A stretch of 64,000 bases of DNA from an uncultured virus (IMG/VR IMGVR_UViG_3300008117_000046). Lineage: Duplodnaviria; Heunggongvirae; Uroviricota; Caudoviricetes. The notes under the pieces were generated by a model. It had not been told where the DNA came from. It ran no database searches and was given only the letters and a program-made list of their open reading frames with translations. Positions 48,586-50,973 of this stretch are shown piece after piece. Numbering within the stretch: the first letter of the stretch is position 1; each line of letters starts with the position of its first letter. A program made the translations under genes and the position numbers. The stretch lies in the IMG/VR virus record IMGVR_UViG_3300008117_000046; one strand, written 5' to 3'.

Positions 48586-48982
48586 CTAATCTCCGTATAG
48601 TCCTAATTGTTTTACTCCATCGGTCCATCTCGCATTCGAGATAGGTAATCAACTCGGCCCGCGCGGATTTCAAATGCTTATGACTATGAGGAGTACTAAC
48701 ATCACACCGCTCAATAACTGATAGGTGTCCCTTCTGTCTTACTAGATAGTTACCATAACCTGTTACACTGGCGGGCCTAATAGCGCGGGCTACGCGGATA
48801 CTAGCCTTATAATCTGCGCGCCCCTTCTTCAGGTAATTAAGTAATCTACTCTGCTGCGTCATAAAACTTAGACTAGACTGCCTATCATGCGCCACGGCCG
48901 CGAGATAATCAGTCACACCTATATAAGAATCGGGGCCCTTATATATAACGTAGTACCACGGTCTATTATCTAGAATTGACAT
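48527..48982 (-). CDS. Hypothetical protein
   Basis: 151-aa ORF overlapping its neighbours. Confidence 0.55.
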   Translation of the reverse strand: MSILDNRPWYYVIYKGPDSYIGVTDYLAAVAHDRQSSLSFMTQQSRLLNYLKKGRADYKASIRVARAIRPASVTGYGNYLVRQKGHLSVIERCDVSTPHSHKHLKSARAELITYLECEMDRWSKTIRTIRRLDADNVQRPLSDAAGSSREW

Positions 48983-49553
48983 AAATCTTAAGCAATCTCT
49001 CTAGTGCCCTCTTCAAGTCTGATACTCTGCGGTAGTCATTAACTATGTCTATATAATGAACGCCCGCCCCATTAAGGCGAGCCAGACGGTCTTTAATAGC
49101 CTGATAGTTAACATCACTACTCAGTACCTGCTCAGACGAGCGGCTTATATTGATTACTATACAACATCTATTAATCAATGTAGATAGCATACTCTCTATT
49201 ACCTCTACCTCCTCCAGGTTGCGTAGGGACAATAGAACAGTAGGTATACCCTCGCTGATATGGTGCTGTATCTCAGTCCGCATCATACGACTAGAGAAGT
49301 AGGGGTCATTCTCTCTCATGAAGTGATAGAGATTAACCATGAACTGATTCATGGTTATATTCATACCATTGGGCGTATACTCTTTGTATACTGTTGTATC
49401 GAGGGCCCCCTCTGGCAATCCATAGTATTTCTCTGTGAAGCGCTTCCATGGAGCTATAGGATGAATCTCCTCTACCCCCAGTAACTTAGATAAACATTTA
49501 GAGGCTTCAGTCTTACCTGAACCACTTAGACCATGAATAATAATAAAGAACAT
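48966..49553 (-). CDS. P-loop nucleotide (dNMP) kinase-like protein
   Basis: N-terminal IIHGLSGSGKT, APWK and LRNLEE. Confidence 0.7.
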   Translation of the reverse strand: MFFIIIHGLSGSGKTEASKCLSKLLGVEEIHPIAPWKRFTEKYYGLPEGALDTTVYKEYTPNGMNITMNQFMVNLYHFMRENDPYFSSRMMRTEIQHHISEGIPTVLLSLRNLEEVEVIESMLSTLINRCCIVINISRSSEQVLSSDVNYQAIKDRLARLNGAGVHYIDIVNDYRRVSDLKRALERLLKIYVNSR

Positions 49554-49570: not shown

Positions 49571-49599
49571 TTGACAATTTTAGAAGTCTCTGATAAAAT
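49571..49599 (+). promoter_or_regulatory. Sigma70-type promoter for the tRNA-like RNA
   Basis: TTGACA, 17-nt spacer, TAAAAT, with extended -10 TG. Confidence 0.8.
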
Positions 49600-49605
49600 T
49601 GAAAT

Positions 49606-49803
49606 GCTAGAGTAGCTTGGTAGCTAAAGGCTGAAACGGAGCCTTCAACCGAAAAGGGACTTAATACAAAAAATACCTTTGTTTTTTGTTTCAAAACTGA
49701 AATTTGCGAATCCACCGAACTTGGCAAAGATTGAGTGAGGGAAGGGCGTTTCGTCAGGAGTAGATTTAATTAAGTTTTGCGGGTTCAATTCCCGTCTCTA
49801 GTA
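49606..49803 (+). ncRNA. tRNA-like RNA with an expanded variable region of about 130 nt
   Basis: Acceptor GCTAGAG/CTCTAGT plus A; mini D arm GCT-TGGT-AGC; stem-loop AAGGCT-GAAACGG-AGCCTT; T arm GCGGG-TTCAATT-CCCGT. Confidence 0.65.
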
Positions 49804-49844
49804 CCTATTAAATTATGCCACCAGTCACGAGTTAATAAATTCAT

Positions 49845-50117
49845 TTAATACTCATTGAGTCGCATTTTTAGATTCTTCAGTTTTTCAAGTTTTCTTTCAG
49901 TTTGTTTAATTGCTTTAAGTCTCTTTTCTTCAAAGACTTTTTGAGCTTCTGTTTCCGTTAGCACATACTCTTTTGAGGTAAATCCGTCTAGCATTAACAT
50001 ATTAAATTTACGGGGATTATCCGGGGAAAATACCCCATGGCAGATTTTTCCATTGCACTTTATAATGCCACTTGTCAAAGCGTATTTTGTGACATAAACT
50101 GTAATTGTTTCGTCCAT
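49845..50117 (-). CDS. Hypothetical phage protein
   Basis: VYVTKYALTSGI motif; SD AGGAG. Confidence 0.7.
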   Translation of the reverse strand: MDETITVYVTKYALTSGIIKCNGKICHGVFSPDNPRKFNMLMLDGFTSKEYVLTETEAQKVFEEKRLKAIKQTERKLEKLKNLKMRLNEY

Positions 50118-50146
50118 TGATTTACTCCTATGGTTATTATTTTTAG

Positions 50147-50228
50147 TGGGTTAGGCTGGGTTTGCACCAGCGTGGAATTACTCTACAGATTTACAGTCTG
50201 TCGCCTTCGACTACTCGGCCACTAACCC
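50147..50228 (-). tRNA. tRNA-Tyr(GTA)
   Basis: Acceptor GGGTTAG/CTAACCC, anticodon arm ACAGA-CTGTAAA-TCTGT, long variable arm, T arm GCTGG-TGCAAAC-CCAGC; CCA not encoded. Confidence 0.9.
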
Positions 50229-50240
50229 TTGTTTAGATTT

Positions 50241-50269
50241 ATCTTACCATAATTCTTAATGCCTGTCAA
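50241..50269 (-). promoter_or_regulatory. Sigma70-type promoter for tRNA-Tyr
   Basis: TTGACA, 17-nt spacer, TAAGAT on the - strand. Confidence 0.75.
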
Positions 50270-50731
50270 TCATGGTTTTTGATTTTCTTGATTCTTTTGA
50301 GATTCTTGCAAATTGAGAAGTTGAAGCACAGCTTCATCTGCGTCTTTACGCGCCATACTACAAGTCCATAGTCTTTGTTCATTGCGCTTAATAATGATAA
50401 TTTCTGTATCAGAAACTGAACAAACTAAATCATTTTTCTGTTTTATTAGTTGATTAAGAGATTCTATTCGTTGCTTTTGTTCTAATTCAGAAACGGGTTG
50501 AGGTTTTTCTCCGTACTCTTGTGTAGAGAAAACAATAGCTAACATAAAACTTTTTGTTTCTTTAAACTGAAACCGAATAATCTGCCAACTAAATTCACCA
50601 TCAGGTTCTAATTCTCGATTCCAAATATTTAGAAAGGTCTGTAAATAACCTTCTAATCCTTTTTGAGTTTGACGGTTTTTATTAATATCACTGACTAAAA
50701 ATCCCGTATCTAACAGAATATTTGACTTCAT
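50270..50731 (-). CDS. Protein resembling the C-terminal domain of cyanobacterial N6-MTase/type IIG R-M enzymes
   Basis: IIIIKRNEQRLWTCSMARKDA motif; no catalytic MTase motifs. Confidence 0.45.
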   Translation of the reverse strand: MKSNILLDTGFLVSDINKNRQTQKGLEGYLQTFLNIWNRELEPDGEFSWQIIRFQFKETKSFMLAIVFSTQEYGEKPQPVSELEQKQRIESLNQLIKQKNDLVCSVSDTEIIIIKRNEQRLWTCSMARKDADEAVLQLLNLQESQKNQENQKP

Positions 50732-50973
50732 TTGCTGCCAATACCTCGAAGATAGTCTTTATTAGTGGCTAAGTCCCCCGGTCCGCCATCGACACAACCA
50801 ATATATTCTTTGGCTGCTTCATAGAATGAAATCGTTTTTTCTTCAGTGAGTTCTTTCTTCTCTGCCTTAAATTGCAAGAATTTAATAAAGTCGATTACTT
50901 CTTGCTGTTGTTGGGGAGTGAGGGCGTTTAGTTTTTCTAAGATGGTTTGTGAGTGAGTGGTTGCTGATATCAT
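50728..50973 (-). CDS. DUF2281-like putative antitoxin
   Basis: ILEKLNALTPQQQQEVIDFIKFL and C-terminal GPGDLATNKDYLRG. Confidence 0.65.
   Translation of the reverse strand: MISATTHSQTILEKLNALTPQQQQEVIDFIKFLQFKAEKKELTEEKTISFYEAAKEYIGCVDGGPGDLATNKDYLRGIGSK

What the first reader, a model, noticed from the sequence alone, without database searches (positions are those of the whole stretch)
49571..49805. Promoter-driven 198-nt tRNA mimic with a giant variable region
Seen: a near-consensus promoter (TTGACA-17-TAAAAT, extended TG) puts +1 at about 49605-49606. There, GCTAGAG pairs with CTCTAGT(A) at 49796-49803, right after a canonical T arm GCGGG-TTCAATT-CCCGT. Between them are a minimal D arm, a 6-bp stem with a non-canonical 7-nt loop (GAAACGG, no U33), and about 130 nt holding a hairpin (acaaaaaa/ttttttgt) and a long-range pairing (aaaact..aatc / gatt..agtttt). 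It is too short for a typical tmRNA, lacks G3:U70, and the insert is too short for a group I intron. It points toward tRNA-Tyr, against the local gene direction. Inference: a candidate new phage ncRNA, for example a decoy for tRNA-targeting defences or a tRNA-processed scaffold.
Basis: partly seen in the sequence, partly recalled or inferred. Interest (0 to 1): 0.75.

Follow-up and report, generated by a model that had tools for sequence, protein, structure and literature searches.

The report
tRNA-shaped phage RNA with pseudoknotted insert
Phages of bloom-forming cyanobacteria carry a small, self-promoted gene for a 200-base RNA that has the ends and elbow of a transfer RNA but a large conserved extra domain in place of a working anticodon arm; it belongs to no described RNA family and its job is still unknown.

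Summary
At 49606-49803 (+) lies a 198-nt RNA gene behind a TTGACA-17-TAAAAT promoter. It has a 7-bp acceptor stem, A73, a D hairpin, a T arm and a 6-bp anticodon-like stem. About 130 nt sit where the variable loop would be.

I found four lineages: Ma-LMM01-type Microcystis phages (9 GenBank records, about 47 IMG/VR contigs), a second group of uncultured phages (6 contigs), a prophage-like region in two Laspinema genomes, and one metagenome contig. All helices differ in sequence but stay paired: 32 of 52 pairs change on both sides and 99.3% of cells pair. Three unpaired blocks are invariant. The anticodon-like loop GAAACG can pair with a conserved CGUUUC 110 nt downstream.

ARAGORN and Rfam recognise nothing. 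It is not a tmRNA: position 3:70 is never G:U, it keeps an anticodon-like arm, and the tag-like frame has no stop in two lineages. Contigs of one metatranscriptome carry it at far higher depth than its neighbours.

Best reading: a stable, non-decoding tRNA mimic whose conserved insert is the working part. Its function is inferred, not shown.

This scan noted the same RNA three times before on other DNA. New here are lineages 3 and 4, the pseudoknot lead, the coding test and the RNA evidence.

The parts
49571..49599 (+). Sigma-70-type promoter: TTGACA, 17-nt spacer, TAAAAT, with an extended -10 TG. It places +1 at about 49605-49606.
   Evidence: 11 of 12 positions, TG yes. It is kept in the lineage-1 variants. 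Lineage 2 has TTGACA, 18 nt, TATAAT the same 6 nt ahead of G1 (sequence printed). The start site is not mapped.
49606..49612 (+). Acceptor stem, 5' strand (GCUAGAG).
   Evidence: Pairs with 49796-49802. 5 of 7 pairs change on both sides across lineages, and C2:G71 never varies.
49613..49626 (+). D hairpin: 5-bp stem UAGCU/AGCUA with loop UGGU (contains GG).
   Evidence: 3 of 5 pairs change on both sides, e.g. A-U to G-C.
49627..49645 (+). Anticodon-like hairpin: 6-bp stem AAGGCU/AGCCUU with 7-nt loop GAAACGG (49633-49639). No U33 and no usable anticodon.
   Evidence: 5 of 6 stem pairs change on both sides. The loop reads GAAACGG in lineages 1, 2 and 4 and AAAACGG in lineage 3. Within lineage 1 its last letter varies and some variants carry a 2-nt insertion.
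49646..49658 (+). Invariant block B1, CAACCGAAAAGGG (A-rich, directly 3' of the anticodon-like stem).
   Evidence: ACCGAAAAGG is identical in all four lineages.
49659..49665 (+). Long-range helix P2, 5' strand (ACUUAAU). It closes the inserted domain.
   Evidence: Pairs with 49769-49775. 6 of 7 pairs change on both sides.
49666..49689 (+). Hairpin H3: 10-bp A/U-rich stem with a 4-nt loop.
   Evidence: 7 of 10 pairs change on both sides. The loop varies freely within lineage 1.
49703..49716 (+). Invariant block B2, UUUGCGAAUCCACC. It resembles the resume region of a tmRNA.
   Evidence: Identical in all four lineages. Frames tested. The tmRNA of the lineage-3 host reads aaat-gcg-aac at its resume site.
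49719..49736 (+). Hairpin H4: ACUUGG / CAAAGA / UUGAGU.
   Evidence: 3 of 6 pairs change on both sides.
49739..49752 (+). Invariant block B3, GGGAAGGG (49739-49746), followed by CGUUUC (49747-49752), the proposed pseudoknot partner of loop letters 49633-49638.
   Evidence: GGGAAGGGCGUUU is identical in all lineages. In the pseudoknot, one pair is G-C in 29 sequences, A-U in 3 and unpaired in 2; the other five pairs never vary. A rival local hairpin, GGCG/CGUC, fits as well. One metatranscriptome contig runs into sequencing adapter right after 49746.
49769..49775 (+). Long-range helix P2, 3' strand (AUUAAGU).
49779..49795 (+). T arm: GCGGG / UUCAAUU / CCCGU.
   Evidence: 2 of 5 pairs change on both sides. 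The loop is UUCAAUU or UUCGAUU in all lineages. It gives a local 15-nt match to the T arm of the tmRNA model (13.3 bits, E 0.003).
49796..49803 (+). Acceptor stem, 3' strand (CUCUAGU), plus unpaired A73. No CCA is encoded.
   Evidence: A73 is present in all four lineages. The sequence after A73 is not conserved.

Best explanation
This is a free-standing gene for a stable, non-decoding, tRNA-shaped RNA of about 198 nt. It travels with its own strong host-type promoter as a module among phages and prophages of cyanobacteria.

Shown here: the RNA folds into a tRNA-like upper half (7-bp acceptor stem, unpaired A73, D hairpin with GG, canonical T arm), an anticodon-like hairpin, and a domain of about 130 nt. 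That domain is closed by a long-range helix (P2), holds two hairpins (H3, H4) and carries three invariant unpaired blocks.

Inferred:
1. The upper half makes the transcript a substrate of the tRNA maturation route (RNase P and RNase Z trimming, CCA addition). That gives it defined ends and high stability.
2. The anticodon-like loop GAAACG pairs with the conserved CGUUUC at the end of the insert, so the lower half is locked into an H-type pseudoknot. The A-rich block B1 would lie along that pseudoknot. Such an RNA cannot read codons.
3. The invariant blocks, held in place by the variable helices, are the working surface. They would bind a factor that is conserved across cyanobacteria, most likely part of the tRNA or translation machinery.
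4. The RNA would be made early by host RNA polymerase and would act as a mimic or sponge that helps the phage take over the cell or blunt a host response.
For: Structure: on 34 distinct sequences from four lineages, 99.3% of cells pair and 32 of 52 pairs change on both sides. 0 of 500 shuffles reach this. With the partners slid by 1-3 columns only 40-54% of cells pair and 5-11 pairs covary. A covariance model built from lineage 1 alone finds lineage 2 at 154 bits, lineage 4 at 127 and lineage 3 at 72.

The insert is the conserved core: ACCGAAAAGG, UUUGCGAAUCCACC and GGGAAGGGCGUUU are identical in all lineages, while every helix has changed sequence.

Pseudoknot: the loop and its partner are conserved. 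G-C becomes A-U in lineage 3 and, independently, in variant L127. This pairing was not part of the model that made the alignment.

Module: lineages 1 and 2 share only promoter plus RNA (74% identity over 213 nt) and nothing in the flanks. Their neighbouring genes differ. Each lineage has a promoter-like site directly upstream.

Expression: 17 runs recorded as RNA, among 20 runs from 10 studies in all, hold part of the stretch. In metatranscriptome X13 the contigs on the element have word depths of 573, 2598 and 235. The flanking ORFs have 40 and 3.4, and tRNA-Tyr 34-38.

Not a decoder and not a known family.
Against: - No partner has been identified, and no neighbouring gene is shared among lineages.
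- Support for the pseudoknot is thin. Only one pair covaries. Two sequences (L081, L117) have an A-C mismatch there. A local hairpin, GGCG/CGYC, fits the same changes through wobble pairs, although it is broken in lineage 4.
- 5 of 44 lineage-1 IMG/VR contigs (L088 type x4 and L109) have the 3' acceptor strand replaced, so the stem cannot form, while the rest of the RNA is intact. Either the acceptor pairing is dispensable or these copies are decaying.
- The RNA evidence comes from assembled contigs only. They cannot show the strand, the ends or a true level, and one contig includes promoter letters 49571-49605.
- The fold of the single sequence is only weakly better than shuffles (z = -1.9; 9 of 200 shuffles fold as well).
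- Within lineage 1 and between lineages 1 and 2, all changes in block B2 and the letters after it are synonymous in one frame. A pure RNA-surface reading does not predict that.
Confidence: 0.42

Rival explanations
1. A miniature tmRNA-like RNA. It would be aminoacylated on its tRNA-like half, enter stalled ribosomes, and have translation resume on GCG AAU CCA CC., adding a short tag (ANPPNLAKIE in this window).
For: - The layout parallels a tmRNA: tRNA-like ends, a long closing helix, a hairpin, a single-stranded block, then a hairpin that carries the stop.
- Block B2 (auuu-GCG-AAU) resembles the resume site of the Laspinema host tmRNA (aaau-GCG-AAC, tag ANNIV...).
- All 4 variable sites of this stretch in lineage 1 are synonymous in that frame (GCG>GCU, CCG>CCA, UUG>UUA, UGA>UAA). 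A random change is synonymous with probability 0.21, or 0.36 for transitions.
- Every one of the 44 contigs found with an ORF-blind 5' pattern also fits the amino-acid-preserving pattern.
- Lineage 2 adds three more synonymous changes and reads ANPPNL-stop.
Against: - Lineages 3 and 4 have no stop in that frame before the 3' end of the RNA.
- The block is invariant at third codon positions across lineages whose helices have all changed.
- The G/A change at the 'UGA>UAA' site recurs in lineage 2 (L189), where it is not a stop.
- The UUG>UUA change is also a G-U to A-U change in hairpin H4.
- Position 3:70 is U-A, U-A, A-U and C-G in the four lineages, never G-U.
- The RNA keeps a D stem and an anticodon-like arm, which a tmRNA lacks.
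- ARAGORN in tmRNA mode finds nothing, even at 70% thresholds.
- The Rfam tmRNA model matches only the T arm.
- In Laspinema the tmRNA model finds the true tmRNA elsewhere (118 bits) and not this element.
- No SmpB gene is present in Ma-LMM01, in the lineage-2 contig or in the window's record.
Confidence: 0.12
2. A plain tRNA decoy. Only the tRNA-like upper half would matter. It would soak up a host enzyme or defence toxin that acts on the acceptor end or elbow of tRNAs, and the insert would only prevent decoding and add stability.
For: - The acceptor, T and D features are canonical, and A73 and C2:G71 are invariant.
- The gene has a strong early-type promoter of the same kind as the neighbouring phage tRNA-Tyr gene.
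- Its contigs have high depth in an RNA library.
- From general knowledge (recalled): Microcystis is rich in toxin-antitoxin and defence systems, and phages are known to answer tRNA-targeting defences with tRNA genes of their own.
Against: - The strictest conservation lies in the insert, not in the tRNA-like half.
- The loop is no copy of any anticodon loop (no U33) and is probably paired.
- 5 of 44 lineage-1 contigs have lost acceptor pairing but keep the insert intact.
Confidence: 0.2
3. A precursor that is cut, by itself or by a nuclease, into smaller active RNAs. The tRNA-like ends would serve only as processing signals.
For: In metatranscriptome X13 one contig runs from the element into Illumina adapter directly after 49746. 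That is the border between GGGAAGGG and CGUUUC. The central piece 49683-49746 has the highest depth: 2598, against 573 and 235 for the flanking pieces.
Against: - Contig depths are means per contig, and the middle of a short RNA is always best covered in fragment libraries.
- The contig borders at 49672 and 49683 coincide with strain polymorphism in the hairpin.
- No known self-cleaving ribozyme family matches.
- Only one run shows it.
Confidence: 0.1
4. A decayed tRNA gene with a random insertion, or a DNA-level site (attachment or recombination site) with no RNA function.
For: - The locus is a hot spot for rearrangement. There is a 328-bp indel just downstream.
- Four contigs carry a 1251-bp insertion that duplicates the promoter and the first 35 nt.
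Against: - Compensatory changes occur in every helix, including those inside the insert.
- The blocks are invariant across four lineages.
- Each lineage has its own promoter.
- Depth in an RNA library is high.
- No host tRNA resembles the tRNA-like part of lineage 3.
Confidence: 0.03

Closest known systems
tmRNA (SsrA, Rfam RF00023), including short and phage-borne forms
   Same: It has tRNA-like acceptor and T-arm ends that enclose a large structured domain closed by a long helix. It has pseudoknot potential. It has a single-stranded GCG-AAY block like the resume site of a cyanobacterial tmRNA. No CCA is encoded.
   Different: Position 3:70 is never G:U. It has a D stem and an anticodon-like arm. 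It is half the usual size (187-206 nt, against 391 nt for the Laspinema tmRNA). The reading frame has no conserved stop. ARAGORN and the Rfam models do not recognise it.
Class II tRNAs (long variable arm: Leu, Ser and bacterial Tyr; family features recalled)
   Same: Cloverleaf order of the helices. The extra helix (P2) emerges between the anticodon-like stem and the T stem. A73 is present.
   Different: The 'arm' is about 130 nt with its own hairpins and invariant blocks. The loop is GAAACGG, without U33. ARAGORN at default settings and Rfam RF00005 do not call it.
Phage T4 stable RNAs, species 1 and 2 (rnaC, rnaD).
   Same: Phage-encoded, abundant, tRNA-sized or larger stable RNAs next to phage tRNA genes, with tRNA-like ends and no known function.
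   Different: No sequence or model was at hand, so homology is untested. The hosts and phage groups are unrelated.
Viral tRNA-like structures and other tRNA mimics (plant-virus TLS, mascRNA, bacterial YrlA; recalled)
   Same: They use a tRNA-like upper half to engage tRNA enzymes while the lower half is remodelled, in some cases by a pseudoknot.
   Different: Those are 3' ends of genomes, cleavage products of long RNAs, or Ro-bound RNAs. This one is a free-standing promoter-driven gene with a new conserved domain. No Rfam match was found.

Membership tests
tRNA (RF00005) | Recognised by tRNA detectors: cloverleaf with a 7-nt anticodon loop, U33 and a variable region of normal size. | tested here: not met
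   ARAGORN and Rfam at the gathering threshold call only tRNA-Tyr in the window. Only with introns allowed and thresholds cut to 80% does ARAGORN force a tRNA-Pro with a 105-nt 'intron' and a distorted D arm. The loop is GAAACGG.
tRNA (RF00005) | 7-bp acceptor stem, unpaired discriminator base, and a T arm with a UUCRAUU loop. | tested here: met
tmRNA (RF00023) | G3:U70 pair in the acceptor stem (alanine identity). | tested here: not met
   The 3:70 pair is U-A 29, A-U 2, U-G 2 and C-G 1.
tmRNA (RF00023) | Internal tag reading frame that ends in a stop codon and is conserved among relatives. | tested here: not met
   Frame 1 reads ANPPNLAKIE-stop and ANPPNL-stop in lineages 1 and 2. It has no stop before the 3' end in lineages 3 and 4.
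tmRNA (RF00023) | tRNA-like domain without an anticodon arm; recognised by the tmRNA models. | tested here: not met
   A covarying anticodon-like hairpin is present. ARAGORN in tmRNA mode finds nothing down to 70% thresholds. Rfam gives only a 15-nt T-arm match, 13.3 bits against a gathering score of 47.
tmRNA (RF00023) | Aminoacylation and dependence on SmpB. | not testable with these tools
   No SmpB gene in the three phage records searched. The host's own SmpB was not examined.
tRNA gene interrupted by a group I intron | Insertion in the anticodon loop and a group I catalytic core. | tested here: not met
   The insertion lies 3' of the anticodon-like stem and is about 130 nt. No Rfam intron family matches at E <= 10.
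Y RNA-like (YrlA) and the other curated ncRNA families of Rfam 15 | A match to the family's covariance model. | tested here: not met
   There is no match near any gathering score for the window stretch or for lineages 2-4.

The most novel reading that the evidence does not exclude
The RNA is a stripped-down trans-translation device of a new kind. It would be charged with an amino acid other than alanine. Its pseudoknotted anticodon-arm mimic would take the place that SmpB fills for tmRNA. In some phages translation would resume on GCG-AAU-CCA-CC., adding a proline-rich ANPPN... tail. In lineages without a stop it would release or trap stalled ribosomes without a defined tag.
Probability: 0.07. 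Interest if true: 0.9.

Novelty: new variant of a known kind. Interest (0 to 1): 0.62.

Why it matters
Ma-LMM01-type phages are the main known killers of toxic Microcystis blooms, yet most of their genes have no known function. This module is kept nearly letter for letter across dozens of environmental phage genomes. It has moved between unrelated phages and into prophage-like DNA of another cyanobacterial order, and in the one metatranscriptome where it can be compared its contigs have far higher depth than those of the neighbouring genes. That pattern points to a general, portable trick against something all these hosts share.

For RNA biology it adds a well-supported new fold to the small set of tRNA mimics: a tRNA upper half joined to a pseudoknot-locked domain with three invariant blocks. 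The alignment and covariance model built here can serve as the seed of a family. Finding its partner would show which step of tRNA or ribosome function these phages manipulate.

Tried and rejected
- Known families. ARAGORN at default settings, in tmRNA mode at thresholds down to 70%, and in mitochondrial and intron modes gave nothing. The only output was a forced tRNA-Pro with a 105-nt intron, which I rejected. Rfam gave nothing at the gathering threshold or at E <= 10 or 5.
- Coding. No ORF of 40 aa or more lies on the plus strand. The two minus-strand ORFs that overlap (55 and 47 aa) are broken by the indels in hairpin H3 and in the loop. The tag-frame idea was followed up and then downgraded.
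- Host origin. No Laspinema tRNA resembles the T arm and acceptor of lineage 3. The host tmRNA shares no word of 9 nt or more with the element beyond the T loop.
- Antisense target. The complement of block B2 occurs once more in the 7.4-Mb Laspinema genome, inside coding-like sequence. I take that as chance.
- CRISPR-repeat mimicry. The loop shares only UGAAAC with the 3' end of the Microcystis type I-D repeat (Table 2 of PMC11855584, passages read). Lineage 3 changes that letter together with its pairing partner, which argues for pairing rather than mimicry.
- Shared neighbouring protein. None was found.
- Cellular homologues. In a sample of 151 genomes of the phylum, only the Laspinema centre genome matched. 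Few first-look candidates were scored, so sensitivity is limited.
- More lineages in IMG/VR. Patterns built on different blocks all returned lineages 1 and 2 only.
- Literature. Searches (listings and abstracts) found no description. In PMC10690425 I read only passages; its supplementary catalogue of IMG/VR candidate RNAs was not opened and may list this motif.
- Runs X9, X16 and X17 added nothing decisive. X9 is one 12.9-kb contig over the whole region. X16 and X17 have depth below 17.

Full report
**What is there.** The window is a Ma-LMM01-type Microcystis myophage (genus Fukuivirus). The stretch 49400-50300 matches 9 GenBank records of 7 phages at 93% identity. Between a minus-strand P-loop ORF (48966-49553) and a minus-strand tRNA-Tyr gene (50146-50228) lies the feature, on the plus strand.

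It starts with a promoter: TTGACA, 17 nt, TAAAAT, with an extended TG (49571-49599). This is the best of the promoter-like sites in the region (11 of 12 positions). The number of such sites is not above chance.

Six letters after the -10 box begins GCUAGAG (49606-49612). It pairs with CUCUAGU (49796-49802), followed by an unpaired A (49803). Inside are:
- a 5-bp D hairpin with loop UGGU;
- a 6-bp stem with loop GAAACGG;
- a canonical T arm (GCGGG/UUCAAUU/CCCGU);
- about 130 nt between the anticodon-like stem and the T arm.

ARAGORN and Rfam at their normal thresholds see only tRNA-Tyr in the whole window. At E <= 10 the only related Rfam hit is a 15-nt match of the T arm to the tmRNA model. 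The element is unannotated in Ma-LMM01 and MaMV-DC, and no feature lies under it in 9 of 9 phage records.

**Relatives.** I used exact and gapped patterns taken from different parts of the element.
- Lineage 1 (this window's type) turned up in 44-47 IMG/VR contigs, in 11 of 12 metagenome hits, and in three contigs binned into bacterial MAGs.
- Lineage 2 is carried by 6 IMG/VR contigs of 26-91 kb. It shares with Fukuivirus only promoter plus RNA (74% identity over 213 nt). Its neighbours are different genes: an N6-methylase, a deoxyribosyltransferase and FGE-sulfatase-like proteins. I found no relative among isolated phages.
- Lineage 3 is a single copy in each of two Laspinema genomes. The region has strong phage-family matches: a PHROG 'DNA repair protein' at 8.6e-270, HNH endonucleases and DNA methyltransferases.
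- Lineage 4 is one 46.6-kb metagenome contig. Its wider context could not be fetched.

The RNAs are 198, 196, 206 and 187 nt long. In a sample of 151 genomes of the phylum, only the Laspinema centre genome matched the model; few first-look candidates were scored.

**Structure.** A covariance model built from lineage 1 alone recovers lineage 2 at 154 bits, lineage 4 at 127 and lineage 3 at 72. On the resulting 35-sequence alignment (34 distinct rows):
- 99.3% of cells form standard pairs;
- 32 of 52 pairs change on both sides;
- 0 of 500 shuffles reach any of the five measures;
- sliding the partners by 1-3 columns gives 40-54% pairing and 5-11 covarying pairs.

Pairs that change on both sides, by helix: acceptor 5 of 7, D 3 of 5, anticodon-like stem 5 of 6, long-range helix P2 6 of 7, hairpin H3 7 of 10, hairpin H4 3 of 6, T arm 2 of 5.

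The alignment was fitted to the model's structure, which favours it. Even so, the four acceptor stems (GCUAGAG, GCUAUUG, GCAGGAU, ACCCUGU, each with its exact complement) and the four P2 helices can be read straight from the raw sequences. C2:G71 and A73 never vary.

Within lineage 1 the variation sits in loops. The H3 loop has five forms, the last letter of the anticodon-like loop is G, U or A, and two variants carry a UG insertion there.

P2 takes their place.

**Conserved core and pseudoknot.** Three unpaired blocks are identical in all lineages:
- B1, ACCGAAAAGG, directly after the anticodon-like stem;
- B2, UUUGCGAAUCCACC;
- B3, GGGAAGGGCGUUU.

The loop letters GAAACG (49633-49638) are complementary to CGUUUC (49747-49752), which follows B3. 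Lineage 3 has AAAACG together with CGUUUU, and so does lineage-1 variant L127. Two other variants (L081, L117) have the A without the U. This pairing was not in the model, so the alignment is not biased towards it. Still, only one pair varies.

A local hairpin, GGCG/CGYC, is equally compatible through wobble pairs and fails only in lineage 4. If the pseudoknot forms, it is a classical H-type one with the A-rich B1 as its third loop. That last point is inference.

**Is it a tmRNA?** This was the most tempting reading.
- Points for it: In lineage 1 the four variable sites between B2 and B3 are all synonymous in the frame GCG AAU CCA CCG AAC UUG GCA AAG AUU GAG UGA. All 44 contigs found with a pattern blind to this region fit the amino-acid-preserving pattern. 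Lineage 2 reads ANPPNL-stop with three further synonymous changes. The Laspinema tmRNA resumes on aaau-GCG-AAC.
- Points against it: Lineages 3 and 4 have no stop in that frame before the RNA ends. The block is invariant at third codon positions across lineages in which every helix has changed. The G/A site that keeps the stop in lineage 1 varies in the same way in lineage 2, where it is not a stop. One 'synonymous' change is also a G-U to A-U change in H4. Position 3:70 is never G-U. A D stem and an anticodon-like arm are present. ARAGORN and the Rfam tmRNA models fail. In Laspinema the tmRNA model finds the real 391-nt tmRNA elsewhere and not this element. No phage SmpB gene exists.

I keep this reading as a rival at about 0.12.

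**Expression.** 20 listed runs hold part of the stretch; 17 of them are recorded as RNA, and the 20 come from 10 studies. All are kept as assembled contigs, so neither strand, ends nor true levels can be read.

In one metatranscriptome (X13) the contigs on the element have word depths of 573 (49571-49672), 2598 (49683-49746) and 235 (49718-49804, ending one base past A73). The upstream ORF has 40, the downstream ORF 3.4, and the listed tRNA-Tyr contigs 34-38. One contig runs into Illumina adapter right after 49746, so many sequenced fragments ended there. Whether that marks a processing site cannot be told. The other three runs laid were uninformative.

**What it most likely does.** Shown: it is a conserved, structured, self-promoted and apparently abundant RNA that cannot decode and is not a member of any curated family.

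Inferred: the tRNA-like half supplies maturation, CCA addition and stability. The lower half is locked to the insert. The invariant blocks are the functional surface for a factor common to cyanobacteria, probably in tRNA or ribosome function. Expression from a strong host-type promoter, of the same type as that of the neighbouring tRNA-Tyr gene, suggests an early role in takeover or counter-defence.

Against a pure decoy: the insert is more conserved than the tRNA-like half, and 5 of 44 lineage-1 contigs have lost acceptor pairing while keeping the insert. The rivals and their weights are given in their own sections.

**Novelty.** I found no description in the papers searched. The supplementary catalogue of PMC10690425 was not opened. 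This scan's earlier notes describe the same RNA on three other genomes, with the same 'function unknown' verdict. They name tmRNA and the T4 stable RNAs as the nearest relatives. I confirm their description. I add the prophage and metagenome lineages, per-helix covariation counts, the pseudoknot lead, an explicit test and downgrade of the tag-frame idea, and the metatranscriptome depth contrast. I class it as a new variant within the known kind 'tRNA mimics', not as a member of any known family.

Noticed in passing
window 49808-50137 (ORF 49845-50117, minus strand, 90 aa): A 328-bp stretch holding a 90-aa ORF lies between the RNA gene and tRNA-Tyr. It is absent from Ma-LMM01 and MaMV-DC. One metatranscriptome contig joins 49808 to 50137 without it. 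The ORF has no Pfam match.
   Followed up: partly
L084/L085 (IMGVR_UViG_3300028429_000156) and three further contigs: Four IMG/VR contigs carry a 1251-bp insertion that duplicates the promoter and the first 35 nt of the RNA gene. The upstream copy is a stump with a damaged -35 box that runs into a terminator-like hairpin. The downstream copy is intact. A 12.9-kb contig of run X9 shows the same arrangement. The 5' edge of the gene looks like a recombination hot spot.
   Followed up: partly
L088 (4 identical contigs) and L109: A lineage-1 sub-type has the 3' acceptor strand replaced (CTCTAGTACC becomes CTGGGGAC), so the acceptor stem cannot form. The rest of the RNA is intact.
   Followed up: partly
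window 50241-50269 (minus strand): The phage tRNA-Tyr gene has the same kind of promoter as the RNA gene: TTGACA, 17 nt, TAAGAT with an extended TG. The two stable-RNA genes are convergent.
   Followed up: no
window 50270-50973 (minus strand): Two small overlapping ORFs of 81 and 153 aa. The first has a weak DUF2281 match just under Pfam's cut-off (25.4 bits against 26.5), a family I recall as found in antitoxin-like proteins. The pair may be a toxin-antitoxin-like couple.
   Followed up: no
L245, L247, L248 (genome contigs): Lineage-1 phage contigs of 10-86 kb are filed inside MAGs labelled Crocinitomicaceae and Acidimicrobium. This is probably a binning error and not a sign of the host.
   Followed up: no
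L266 6800-8170 (lineage-2 contig, upstream of the RNA gene): About 1.4 kb without an ORF of 70 aa or more. At its end next to the RNA gene it holds repeated C-rich units (CCAAGAAAAAACC...CCCCCTACC), one of them just ahead of the promoter-like TTGACA (sequence printed).
   Followed up: no
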